Of a DNA stretch of 64,000 bases, positions 31,002 to 32,447 are shown piece after piece. Position 1 is the first letter of the stretch, and every line of letters starts with the position of its first letter. The notes below the pieces were generated by a model. It was given only the letters and a program-made list of their open reading frames with translations. It did no database searches and was not told where the DNA came from. The stretch lies in assembly GCF_030013205.1 (NCBI RefSeq), contig NZ_CP122648.1; one strand, 5' to 3'. Both the position numbers and the translations under genes were made by a program. The DNA is from Escherichia coli. Lineage in GTDB: Bacteria > Pseudomonadota > Gammaproteobacteria > Enterobacterales > Enterobacteriaceae.

Positions 31002-31574
31002 ATGGTTGACGCATCAGCTCAACCCCATATAGTTGTAACACTTGAGCCAAACCCTTGGGCCGCTTTTTACTTTGATATTAACATTGCTAATACAGGGAAC
31101 GCACCTGCCTATAATGTTGAGGTTGTGTTTGATCCTCCACTAGTAAATGCGGAGCATAGAGAAAAAAGTGAGATTCCGTTTAGTAAGGTAAGCGTGTTAA
31201 AAAATGGGCAATCACTTACCAGCAATCTCTGTAAGTATGAACAAATCAAAGATCAAATTTATAATATTAATATAAGCTGGGCAAGCAAACCTAAATCAAA
31301 CGATAGAGAAACAAATGAATATGTGTATGACATGGCGACATTTGAAGGAATAAGTTATCTAGGAGCGAGAAGCCCATTGACGCAAATTGCAGAACAAATT
31401 AAAGGTATAAGAGAGGATTGGAAACCTATTGCACAAGGAGCTAAAAAAGTAAAAGCAGACGTATATACTTCAAGCGATAGAAACGAAGAACGCACGTATC
31501 TGCAAGAGCAACACGATTTGGCAATAAAAAGGAGAGATGAGAAAAGAGAAAAAAGATTAGAGTCTGGTGAATAA
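31002..31574 (+). CDS. Hypothetical protein (190 aa from first ATG), AT-rich, no family assigned
   Basis: Track ORF 30948-31574; its 5' extension lies inside the IS911 inverted repeat, so the first ATG at 31002 (MVDASAQPHIVV...) is taken as start; gene may be 5'-truncated by IS911. Confidence 0.5.
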   Translation: MVDASAQPHIVVTLEPNPWAAFYFDINIANTGNAPAYNVEVVFDPPLVNAEHREKSEIPFSKVSVLKNGQSLTSNLCKYEQIKDQIYNINISWASKPKSNDRETNEYVYDMATFEGISYLGARSPLTQIAEQIKGIREDWKPIAQGAKKVKADVYTSSDRNEERTYLQEQHDLAIKRRDEKREKRLESGE

Positions 31575-31583
31575 TTTTAAAGG

Positions 31584-31604
31584 GAGTGGGTAACTAACCC
31601 ACTC
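31584..31604. terminator. Bidirectional hairpin between the convergent 190-aa and 274-aa genes (GAGTGGGT-AACTA-ACCCACTC)
   Basis: Perfect 8-bp inverted repeat in the 48-bp gap between the two stop codons. Confidence 0.5.
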
Positions 31605-31622
31605 GTAACTATAAACCTGTAA

Positions 31623-32447
31623 TTAATCACTTATTTTTGACAACAGATAATTACTGAACGCACTGCAAGTGACTAACATAAATTTAGCTTCAGCTAAGGT
31701 AGGATTTACATCTTCTTCTGTTAGCGCATGACGTATTCCACCCTGATCACTTGTATAACCATAGAGCTGACTAAAAGCGCCTTTCATTGCAGAGTGTATA
31801 TATCCTTTTTCCTCTATAGCTTTAAGACAAGCCCCCAAGGTTCCTTTATCATTGCCCGTGATTTTCCTGCATAAAGATTCAATTGCAGAGATAGACTCTT
31901 TAATCGAGTTTCTGTAGTCTGGCTGCTCTCTATCCGTCATTAGTTGTAACGCCCTTTCGAAATGGCTACGCGATGAATCAGTGCCATTATCAACTGCGTT
32001 CTGAACACTTTCAATTTCGTTATCATTTGAAATAGGAGTAATACAACCATTTATTATGGTATAACCAACGCCATGCTTTTTAAAGATGGAATTGAGATGC
32101 TTCGATAGATTAATATATGAATTAGTTCTCTCAATGATGAACTCAATTAAATCATATACCAAATACCATGCTTCCCCATATATATAATCTCGGATAGCAG
32201 TCAGCAACGTCTTATCACTTTTGTATCCACTTTCATAACGAGGAATATTATCCGCAGGTTGATTTAGATAATATATCCACACAGACTGCGCACATTTTGT
32301 TGCTGTAGCAGTTTGACGATTGTTAGTCCAAAGGAAAAGATATAAGCAATTCCACAATGCCATGCGTGTATCAGAATTAAGATCATTCAGCTGGACATGC
32401 TCTCTAACGTCAACATGACCATACCTCACAGAAAATGGCTTTATCAT
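31623..32447 (-). CDS. Hypothetical protein (274 aa), AT-rich, no family assigned (possibly Abi-like; unverified)
   Basis: ORF MIKPFSVRYGHVDVREHVQLNDLNSDTRMALWNCLYLFLW... with RBS AGGGGAAGA upstream; low GC codon usage typical of acquired cargo. Confidence 0.6.
   Translation of the reverse strand: MIKPFSVRYGHVDVREHVQLNDLNSDTRMALWNCLYLFLWTNNRQTATATKCAQSVWIYYLNQPADNIPRYESGYKSDKTLLTAIRDYIYGEAWYLVYDLIEFIIERTNSYINLSKHLNSIFKKHGVGYTIINGCITPISNDNEIESVQNAVDNGTDSSRSHFERALQLMTDREQPDYRNSIKESISAIESLCRKITGNDKGTLGACLKAIEEKGYIHSAMKGAFSQLYGYTSDQGGIRHALTEEDVNPTLAEAKFMLVTCSAFSNYLLSKISD

What the first reader, a model, noticed from the sequence alone, without database searches (positions are those of the whole stretch)
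31002..32447. Two AT-rich convergent genes of unknown function (190 aa and 274 aa) between the IS911 end and the att repeat
Both ORFs are markedly AT-rich compared with the flanking DNA and have no family I can assign by eye. The 190-aa gene starts within about 20 bp of the IS911 inverted repeat and may be a 5'-truncated remnant. The 274-aa gene has its own RBS and a hairpin terminator shared with its neighbour. Their position at the variable end of a tRNA island is where defence or Abi genes typically sit.
Basis: inference. Interest (0 to 1): 0.45.

Follow-up and report, generated by a model that had tools for sequence, protein, structure and literature searches.

The report
Predicted HEPN defence gene plus truncated neighbour
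The 274-aa gene is an intact, already catalogued but untested single-gene candidate for anti-phage defence, and the 190-aa "gene" next to it is the beheaded remnant of an unrelated membrane-protein gene cut off by IS911; useful annotation, not a new kind of system.

Summary
Two AT-rich convergent ORFs lie at 31002-31574 (+) and 31623-32447 (-), between the IS911 end (~30981) and a 28-nt copy of the leuX 3' end (32978-33005).

**ORF A (190 aa)** is a 5'-truncated pseudogene. Full-length relatives (228-234 aa, phrog_11802) start with a transmembrane helix followed by a beta-sandwich. Here homology begins at residue 39, at the IS911 junction. A full-length relative sits alone in the Z region of phage P2-EC53.

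**ORF B (274 aa)** is RefSeq's "AbiJ-NTD4 domain-containing protein".
- It matches Pfam PF18863 (5.8e-27) and PADLOC candidate PDC-S32 (5.6e-104).
- The canonical Rx4-6H motif is absent; invariant RNSIKES and GGIRH motifs are present.
- It is under purifying selection (dN/dS about 0.1).
- It occurs as a lone cargo gene in islands and prophages, often beside defence genes.

The two genes are not a system. They co-occur only in one closely related DNA block.

The most likely function of ORF B is a sensor-plus-HEPN abortive-infection protein that cleaves RNA. This is inferred, and no test was found. Novelty and interest are low.

The parts
30932..30981 (-). Left terminal inverted repeat of IS911 (IS911 is itself split by IS30). 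It is the breakpoint that truncates ORF A. The terminal octamer TGAAGTGG occurs twice in tandem (30966-30973 and 30974-30981).
   Evidence: Sequence read. RefSeq annotates an IS3-family transposase and IS30 here. Naming it IS911 rests on my knowledge of the IS911 end sequence and OrfA.
30984..31574 (+). 5'-truncated remnant (pseudogene) of a single-pass membrane beta-sandwich protein gene, family phrog_11802. It corresponds to residues 39-234 of the full-length protein. RefSeq calls the ATG-31002 ORF WP_000227281.1 (190 aa).
   Evidence: phrog_11802 hit at 2.4e-81 covering profile positions 45-228 of 230. Alignment with 228-234-aa homologues. tblastn homology starts at 30984 = residue 39, and the N-terminus is nowhere else in the window.
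31584..31604 (.). Intergenic hairpin (GAGTGGGT-AACTA-ACCCACTC) between the convergent stop codons.
   Evidence: The 71-nt stretch containing it folds at -20.9 kcal/mol, z = -3.98. Not called as an intrinsic terminator. 94% conserved in Enterobacter L006.
31623..32447 (-). Intact 274-aa gene (WP_000594911.1): N-terminal AbiJ-NTD4 domain plus C-terminal HEPN-fold domain. PADLOC candidate PDC-S32.
31989..32438 (-). AbiJ-NTD4 domain (residues 4-153), the predicted sensor/regulatory domain.
   Evidence: Pfam PF18863, 95.5 bits against a cut-off of 34. All 49 aligned homologues match it.
31626..31985 (-). HEPN-fold domain (residues about 155-274). Invariant residues: H162, R173, D177, R179-N-S-I-K-E-S185, E190, H218, L-Y-G 228-230, D234, G237, R239-H240.
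32450..32455 (-). Shine-Dalgarno-like GGGGAA at -8 to -3 of the ORF B start codon.
   Evidence: Read from the sequence.
32528..32977 (.). Highly conserved (about 98-99%) non-coding block lying between the variable cargo slot and leuX. Function unknown.
   Evidence: No Rfam hit and no unusual folding energy.
32978..33005 (-). Displaced copy of the leuX 3' end. It is a direct repeat of 40292-40319 and marks the distal end of the later 7.3-kb island.
   Evidence: tRNA position.

Best explanation
**Two unrelated cargo genes sit in a variable slot just downstream of leuX.**

**ORF B (274 aa)** is an intact, stand-alone gene.
- Its N-terminal AbiJ-NTD4 domain is proposed to sense a phage component and hold the protein inactive.
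- Its C-terminal HEPN-fold domain is proposed to act as a dimeric, metal-independent RNase. Once released, it would cut cellular RNA and abort infection.
- Its active site is non-canonical: there is no Rx4-6H motif. Two invariant motifs should lie at the same end of the helix bundle and form one site. They are R179-N-S-I-K-E184 at the start of helix 2 and D234...G-G-I-R239-H240 after helix 3.

**ORF A** is a dead remnant. IS911 removed the promoter, the start codon and the first 38 codons, including the membrane anchor. The parent family encodes a 228-234-aa protein with a TM helix and a beta-sandwich. That family also travels alone as cargo in the Z region of P2-like phages.

**Shown here:** the truncation, the domain and fold assignments, purifying selection on ORF B, the independence of the two genes, and the variability of the slot.

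**Inferred:** sensing, RNase activity, the anti-phage phenotype, and the geometry of the active site.
For: **ORF A is truncated.**
- phrog_11802 matches only profile positions 45-228 of 230.
- Full-length homologues of 228-234 aa carry an N-terminal hydrophobic helix that is absent here.
- Homology begins at 30984, which is residue 39, abutting the IS911 end. The missing part is not elsewhere in the window.
- RefSeq flags the O26 copy as a pseudogene missing its N-terminus.

**ORF B domains and fold.**
- Pfam AbiJ_NTD4 at 5.8e-27.
- PADLOC PDC-S32 at 5.6e-104 over the full length.
- AF2 model with pLDDT 80.7.
- R179-S185, E190, R239 and H240 are invariant across 49 homologues of 39-78% identity.

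**ORF B is maintained and widespread.**
- dN/dS is 0.12 and 0.10.
- 4437 homologues were found, and the listed top hits share this size and PF18863. The C-terminal domain profile finds 4833 clusters.

**Defence context.**
- Neighbours include AbiEii (L005), a DpdF-like helicase (L006), and PDC-S08 plus an REase-like protein in Xanthomonas.
- Homologues sit between an integrase and a resolvase in Klebsiella and inside a P2-type tail cluster in Pectobacterium.
- In Kosakonia the same slot holds DUF3800/PDC-M04A plus a protein with an RNALAH motif.

**Published model.** The sensor-NTD plus HEPN-toxin model for AbiJ-NTD proteins is from PMC3710099.
Against: - No experiment on this family was found. 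A search for 'PDC-S32' returned no paper, and the three papers naming AbiJ-NTD4 or PF18863 are computational or survey studies.
- The canonical Rx4-6H motif is absent. After R179 comes NSIKES and after R239 comes HALTEED. In AbiV, mutating R91 alone or R91 plus H97 of the motif abolishes RNase activity.
- Pfam Abi_C (the AbiJ HEPN model) and PADLOC's AbiJ models do not hit the protein.
- No sequence-level link to any solved HEPN protein was found. Foldseek found nothing significant.
- Even the mechanism of L. lactis AbiJ is unknown.
- No consensus-like promoter was found upstream of ORF B within 32448-32960.
Confidence: 0.6

Rival explanations
1. The two convergent genes form one two-gene system, with a membrane-anchored partner acting together with the HEPN protein. 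The E. coli copy would be a degraded version of it.
For: The same convergent pair, with the membrane gene intact (231 and 234 aa), lies beside a resolvase gene in a metagenome contig and in Enterobacter roggenkampii. The intergenic hairpin is conserved.
Against: - Those loci share one DNA block with the window (81-90% identity from 30983 to 33005). This is common descent, not repeated co-occurrence.
- 16 of 17 genome loci encoding the membrane protein have no AbiJ-NTD4 gene within the fetched flanks. The exception is identical to E. coli.
- Klebsiella, Pectobacterium and Xanthomonas AbiJ-NTD4 loci lack the membrane protein.
- In P2-EC53 and R18C the membrane gene stands alone.
- In Kosakonia it sits beside different cargo.
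- Within the shared block the two genes diverge unequally: 80% against 94% nucleotide identity to Enterobacter.
- PADLOC files PDC-S32 among its 'S' candidates, which I understand to mean single-gene.
Confidence: 0.06
2. ORF B is not a nuclease. Its HEPN-fold domain has lost catalysis and acts as an RNA- or nucleotide-binding or regulatory module, or as an addiction or island-stabilising factor rather than a phage-defence effector.
For: - There is no Rx4-6H motif.
- HEPN families that lack the motif are described as probable binding domains.
- No partner antitoxin gene is conserved, which is odd for a constitutively toxic RNase.
Against: - The invariant polar and charged cluster (R179, N180, K183, E184, D234, R239, H240) across a very large family looks like a catalytic or ligand site.
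- The published HEPN survey proposes that some families, such as AF0298-like and AbiV, may use alternative histidines.
- Not all AbiV relatives keep R or H, or their spacing.
- The gene repeatedly neighbours defence genes.
Confidence: 0.25
3. Both ORFs are decaying junk at an IS-ridden island end, with no current function.
For: ORF A is a fragment. IS1 splits ORF B in strain G1/2, and IS600 splits ORF A further in O26:H11. No promoter was found for ORF B.
Against: - ORF B is full-length and 100% identical in the best-matching of the 463 complete E. coli genomes that carry the region.
- Its dN/dS is about 0.1 against two diverged orthologues.
- It keeps every family-invariant residue and has a ribosome-binding site.
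Confidence: 0.08

Closest known systems
PADLOC phage-defence candidate PDC-S32 (PDLC04997/04996)
   Same: Full-length profile match: E 5.6e-104, residues 3-272 against profile positions 8-281 of 285. ORF B is a member.
   Different: PDC entries are candidates proposed from genomic context. A search for the name returned no paper. Only other PDC types are reported as tested in the papers read.
Lactococcus lactis AbiJ and the AbiJ-NTD/HEPN architecture (Anantharaman et al. 2013, PMC3710099)
   Same: The architecture matches: a family-specific N-terminal domain (AbiJ-NTD4) fused to a C-terminal HEPN-fold domain, in a single-gene system on mobile DNA.
   Different: The Pfam Abi_C and PADLOC AbiJ models do not match. 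The canonical Rx4-6H motif is missing. L. lactis AbiJ itself has no known mechanism.
[quoted passage not shown]
   Different: AbiV has RNHKSKH (R91, H97) and an RNA antitoxin, abiV2. ORF B has RNSIKES and GGIRH, carries an extra 150-aa N-terminal domain, and has no identified RNA partner.
CBY_0614/STM4504 family (NCBIfam NF046078). CBY_0614 is the published prototype of AbiJ-NTD4.
   Same: Same named N-terminal domain.
   Different: Only 15.8 bits against a cut-off of 150. It is a different subfamily.
ORF1 of the P2-EC53 Z region ('putative lysogenic conversion protein', AJ512682) / phrog_11802
   Same: ORF A is 70% identical over 92% of its length to this 230-aa protein and matches phrog_11802 at 2.4e-81.
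   Different: ORF A lacks the first 38 residues, including the membrane helix. It lies in a leuX island, not in a P2 prophage. The family has no known function and no Pfam or PADLOC model.

Membership tests
Pfam AbiJ_NTD4 (PF18863) | Domain match above the gathering score | tested here: met
   95.5 bits against a cut-off of 34, residues 4-153, profile positions 2-151 of 152. All 49 of 49 aligned homologues match.
PADLOC PDC-S32 | Full-length match to the candidate's HMM | tested here: met
   E 5.6e-104, 345.8 bits.
PADLOC PDC-S32 | Acts as a single gene with no obligate partner | tested here: met
   Neighbours differ in E. coli, Klebsiella, Pectobacterium and Xanthomonas.
HEPN superfamily | Four-helix up-down bundle with an insert between helices 2 and 3 | tested here: met
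HEPN superfamily | Rx4-6H catalytic motif at the end of helix 3 | tested here: not met
   Invariant R239 is followed by H240-A-L-T-E-E-D, and R179 by N-S-I-K-E-S. No His lies 5-7 residues after either Arg. Motif definition.
HEPN superfamily | Metal-independent RNase activity | not testable with these tools
   Needs biochemistry.
AbiJ family proper (Pfam Abi_C PF14355 / PADLOC AbiJ) | Sequence match of the C-terminal domain to the AbiJ HEPN model | tested here: not met
   No Abi_C hit at E <= 10 for the protein, its C-terminal half or four relatives. No AbiJ hit in PADLOC at E <= 1. Only weak DUF4145 hits (E 0.0086-0.26) in 7 of 49 relatives.
Abortive-infection / anti-phage defence system | Protects a population from phage, with death or arrest of the infected cell | not testable with these tools
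   Only context is available: neighbours AbiEii, DpdF-like, PDC-S08, PDC-M04A and PDC-S60.
phrog_11802 / P2-EC53 ORF1 family | Sequence match | tested here: met
   E 2.4e-81. 70% identity to P2-EC53 ORF1.
phrog_11802 / P2-EC53 ORF1 family | Complete gene with the N-terminal transmembrane helix (228-234 aa) | tested here: not met
   Profile positions 1-44 are unmatched. Residues 1-38 are absent and replaced by IS911. The helix at residues 2-49 of the model of homologue P0040 has no counterpart here.
Two-gene system (ORF A + ORF B) | Co-occurrence across diverged relatives | tested here: not met
   Co-occurrence is seen only inside one shared DNA block. It is absent from 16 of 17 ORF A-family loci and from 3 of 3 diverged ORF B-family contexts.

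The most novel reading that the evidence does not exclude
ORF B's family (thousands of members, in 8.5% of complete E. coli genomes) is an active single-protein abortive-infection RNase. Its HEPN domain would use a previously undescribed catalytic arrangement, an adjacent Arg-His dyad (R239-H240) completed by R179/N180/K183/E184 from helix 2, in place of Rx4-6H. It would sit in a cargo-exchange slot anchored by a roughly 450-nt, 98-99% conserved non-coding block downstream of leuX, and that block would itself be functional, for example as a recombination target.
Probability: 0.15. Interest if true: 0.55.

Novelty: new member of a known kind. Interest (0 to 1): 0.27.

Why it matters
This gives a firmer annotation for a locus present in 463 of 5426 complete E. 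coli genomes, including EHEC O26:H11 and porcine ETEC.

- WP_000227281.1 should be treated as a pseudogene fragment, not as a 190-aa protein.
- WP_000594911.1 is a reasonable, cheap-to-test candidate single-gene defence protein. Its HEPN domain lacks the canonical catalytic motif. Testing it would say whether such motif-less HEPN domains are still nucleases.
- The locus also shows that the DNA just downstream of leuX is a slot where different candidate defence cargos replace one another beside a constant non-coding block.

Tried and rejected
1. **Two-gene system.** Rejected on distribution.
3. **Profile search of the C-terminal domain against 1.84 billion representatives.** It found 4833 relatives. 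All of the 150 hits listed place the domain at the C-terminus of proteins mostly 250-300 aa long. No bridge to canonical HEPN families could be drawn.
5. **Shared intrinsic terminator.** The hairpin is real, but no T-run follows it and the scan did not call it.
6. **Inverted repeats flanking the genes as an invertible or mobile cassette** (as annotated around P2-EC53 ORF1). None were found in the window, L006 or L008.
7. **Identity of the conserved 450-nt block.**
   - No Rfam match.
   - Folding energies are ordinary.
   - No phage match.
   - The first 172 nt match unannotated DNA on 64 plasmids at 74-80% identity; one Enterobacter plasmid holds the full length at 89%.
   - One IMG/VR hit turned out to be the same E. 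coli arrangement.
8. **Active-site geometry.** Residue distances could not be measured because model coordinates are not exposed. The argument rests on helix topology only.

Full report
**1. Observation**

- ORF A is open from GTG 30948 to 31574 on the + strand. Its first ATG is at 31002, giving 190 aa.
- ORF B is 31623..32447 on the - strand, 274 aa.
- GC falls to 0.33-0.42 over 31100-32450, against 0.44-0.57 on either side.
- Reading the sequence, the IS911 terminal repeat ends at 30973-30981, about 21 bp before the ATG.
- ORF B has a GGGGAA Shine-Dalgarno-like element at -8 to -3.
- An 8-bp, 5-nt-loop hairpin lies at 31584-31604 in the 48-nt intergenic space. The 71-nt stretch containing it folds at -20.9 kcal/mol, z = -3.98.
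- No T-run follows the hairpin on either strand, and the terminator scan does not call it.
- The 'att repeat' is a 28-nt exact copy (32978-33005) of 40292-40319, which overlaps the 3' end of leuX (tRNA-Leu CAA, 40295-40379, - strand).

**2. ORF A is a beheaded gene**

- It has no Pfam, PADLOC or useful NCBIfam match.
- It matches phrog_11802 at 2.4e-81, but only over profile positions 45-228 of 230.
- A protein search found 91 relatives. Outside E. coli the complete ones are mostly 228-234 aa.
- In the alignment they all begin with about 40 residues that form a hydrophobic helix (consensus ISAFAALLTAVATFFLWRVTRLLA). The E. coli protein lacks this helix.
- tblastn with the Enterobacter homologue P0040 starts at window 30984, which is residue 39, directly at the IS911 end. 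The missing 38 codons are found nowhere else in the window. This was therefore not a simple insertion.
- The longer E. coli database entries (191-220 aa) whose sequences I read are the same ORF read upstream into IS sequence.
- RefSeq names the ORF WP_000227281.1 'hypothetical protein'. In O26:H11, where IS600 cuts it again, RefSeq flags it as a pseudogene missing its N-terminus.
- An AF2 model of the intact homologue (pLDDT 80.6) shows a long N-terminal helix, a seven-strand beta-sandwich (residues 54-154) and C-terminal helices.
- The basic residues that follow the helix suggest the sandwich faces the cytoplasm. This is inference.

A full-length relative stands alone in the 'proviral Z-region' of phage P2-EC53, where it is annotated 'putative lysogenic conversion protein'. 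In phage R18C it lies just upstream of the tail sheath gene, downstream of the tail-fibre gene. P2-like phages are known to keep anti-phage cargo in variable hotspots (PMC9122126). That paper's P2 hotspot is the one holding old and tin. I did not find this gene among the systems described in the passages I read.

**3. ORF B is an AbiJ-NTD4 + HEPN-fold protein**

*Family and domain matches*
- Pfam AbiJ_NTD4 matches residues 4-153 (5.8e-27, 95.5 bits against a cut-off of 34).
- PADLOC's candidate PDC-S32 matches the full length (5.6e-104).
- RefSeq calls it 'AbiJ-NTD4 domain-containing protein', WP_000594911.1.
- The family is large: 4437 proteins at E <= 1e-3, and the best 120 listed are mostly 270-300 aa and all carry PF18863.
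- A profile of the C-terminal half alone finds 4833 50%-identity clusters.

*Conserved residues*
- Across 49 homologues of 39-78% identity the C-terminal half carries two invariant motifs: D177-x-R-N-S-I-K-E-S185 (with E190) and L-Y-G...D234-x-x-G-x-R239-H240.
- H162 and H218 are also invariant.

*Fold*
- There is no sequence-level link to solved structures.
- Foldseek was uninformative.

*Motif*
- The published definition places Rx4-6H at the end of helix 3, with a polar N, D or H right after the Arg and an acidic residue in helix 2 nearby.
- In the model, helix 2 is 178-197 and helix 3 is 219-232.
- R239-H240 therefore sits where the motif should be, and H240 is the expected polar follower. 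No His follows at +5 to +7.
- R179/N180/K183/E184 open helix 2.
- In an up-down bundle the start of helix 2 and the end of helix 3 lie at the same end. I therefore infer one composite site.

*What it is not*
- Pfam Abi_C and PADLOC AbiJ do not match.
- NCBIfam's CBY_0614/STM4504 model scores 15.8 bits against 150.
- The protein shares AbiJ's architecture but is not a member of AbiJ proper.

*Selection*
- dN/dS is 0.12 against Enterobacter and 0.10 against a metagenomic orthologue.

**4. The two genes are not a unit**

- The same convergent pair, with the membrane gene intact, occurs in Enterobacter roggenkampii (L006) and in a metagenome contig (L005), each beside a resolvase gene.
- These loci share one continuous DNA block with the window, running from exactly the IS911 junction (30983) to the leuX repeat (33005), at 90% and 81% identity.
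- Identity is uneven inside the block. Against Enterobacter it is 80% for the membrane gene, 94% for ORF B and 96% for the spacer.
- A scan of 100,044 species genomes gave 17 loci for the membrane family. Only the one identical to E. coli also has ORF B.
- Diverged ORF B homologues in Klebsiella (between an integrase and a resolvase), Pectobacterium (between gpV and gpW of a P2-type tail cluster) and Xanthomonas lack the membrane gene.

**5. The place is a variable cargo slot**

- In Kosakonia (L008) the order is leuX, then the conserved spacer, then a 190-aa protein with an RNALAH motif plus a DUF3800 protein (PDC-M04A, 1.9e-21), then the intact membrane gene, then a resolvase.
- In E. coli CFSAN061761 a different 304-aa gene follows the spacer.
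- In strain G1/2 ORF B lies about 530 bp from an intact leuX.
- In this window a 7.3-kb island (33006-40291) has since inserted into leuX and displaced the old 3' end. It carries a 650-aa tyrosine integrase, a serine recombinase, a DUF4062-like protein that hits PDC-S60, a membrane protein and an HTH protein.
- In E2865 and O26 a P4-like satellite occupies that position instead.
- Defence-type neighbours of ORF B relatives include AbiEii, a DpdF-like helicase, PDC-S08 and an REase-like protein.

**6. Mechanism**

The published model for AbiJ-NTD proteins has three parts. The N-terminal domain recognises a phage component. It also restrains the C-terminal toxin. The HEPN domain then acts as a suicidal RNase. 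AbiV shows that a small Abi HEPN protein can be a metal-independent rRNase, and that motif spacing is not strictly kept in that family. L. lactis AbiJ has no known mechanism; escape mutants map to a ssDNA-annealing protein.

For ORF B I adopt this model at about 50% confidence for the RNase/Abi step. The main rival is a non-catalytic HEPN domain.

**7. Novelty and verdict**

- The protein is already annotated in RefSeq.
- Its domain was described in 2013.
- Its family is listed as a PADLOC candidate.
- A search for 'PDC-S32' returned no paper, and the three papers naming AbiJ-NTD4 or PF18863 are computational or survey studies.
- The truncated neighbour is a pseudogene.

The finding is sound annotation of modest interest. 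Two loose ends remain: the motif-less HEPN site and the unexplained conserved non-coding block beside leuX.

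Noticed in passing
window 32528-32977: A block of about 450 nt of non-coding DNA between ORF B and the displaced leuX end. It is 98-99% identical in E. coli, Enterobacter, Kosakonia and a metagenome contig, whatever cargo gene lies beside it. That is far more conserved than the adjacent genes. Single-base indels exclude the 80-aa ORF at 32539-32781 as a conserved coding sequence. It occurs in 629 of 5426 E. coli genomes. There is no Rfam hit, the folding energy is ordinary, and there is no phage match. The first 172 nt have 74-80% matches in unannotated DNA on 64 enterobacterial plasmids. Its identity is unknown.
   Followed up: partly
window 33006-40291: A 7.3-kb island bounded by the 28-nt leuX direct repeat. 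It carries a 650-aa tyrosine integrase (38294-40246), a serine recombinase (35604-36233), and a 281-aa DUF4062-like protein (34745-35590) that hits PADLOC candidate PDC-S60 (5.8e-27). It also carries a membrane protein and an XRE-type HTH protein (33485-34042).
   Followed up: partly
L008 (Kosakonia sp. S29) 6628-8052: The slot that holds ORF B in E. coli instead holds a DUF3800 protein (PDC-M04A, 1.9e-21) and a 190-aa protein with a canonical-looking RNALAH motif that matches no Pfam or PADLOC model.
   Followed up: partly
L031 (E. coli CFSAN061761) 5039-5953: A different, unannotated 304-aa gene occupies the slot beside the conserved block. Next to it are the same recombinase, DUF4062-like, membrane and HTH genes that lie inside the 7.3-kb island of this window. 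This suggests a family of recombinase-linked elements at leuX.
   Followed up: partly
L002 (strain G1/2) 8857-9626; L030 (O26:H11 11368) 1667-2929: Further IS hits in other strains. IS1 splits ORF B near residue 219 in three commensal isolates. IS600 splits the ORF A remnant in the O26:H11 lineage and leaves ORF B intact.
   Followed up: yes
L007 (contig JAIJJM010000048.1, 'MAG: Collinsella sp.'): This contig is 100% identical to the E. coli locus, including the IS911-truncated ORF. It is almost certainly E. coli DNA mis-binned into an actinobacterial MAG.
   Followed up: no
L028 (Pectobacterium brasiliense) 6001-6855: A 41%-identical homologue of ORF B is inserted between the gpV and gpW baseplate genes of a P2-type tail cluster, a moron-like position.
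   Followed up: no
L005, L006, L008, L009, L020, L025: Small serine recombinase (resolvase) genes of only 26-39% mutual identity recur within 0.4-2.6 kb of the membrane-protein gene or of ORF B homologues. This hints at a recombinase-linked way of moving or switching these cargo genes. No flanking inverted repeats were found.
   Followed up: partly
window 28490-30981: IS911 is itself interrupted by an IS30 copy (transposase 29480-30631). As I recall, E. coli K-12 has the same nested arrangement beside the fec operon. Here it separates the fec side of the old island from the cargo slot.
   Followed up: no
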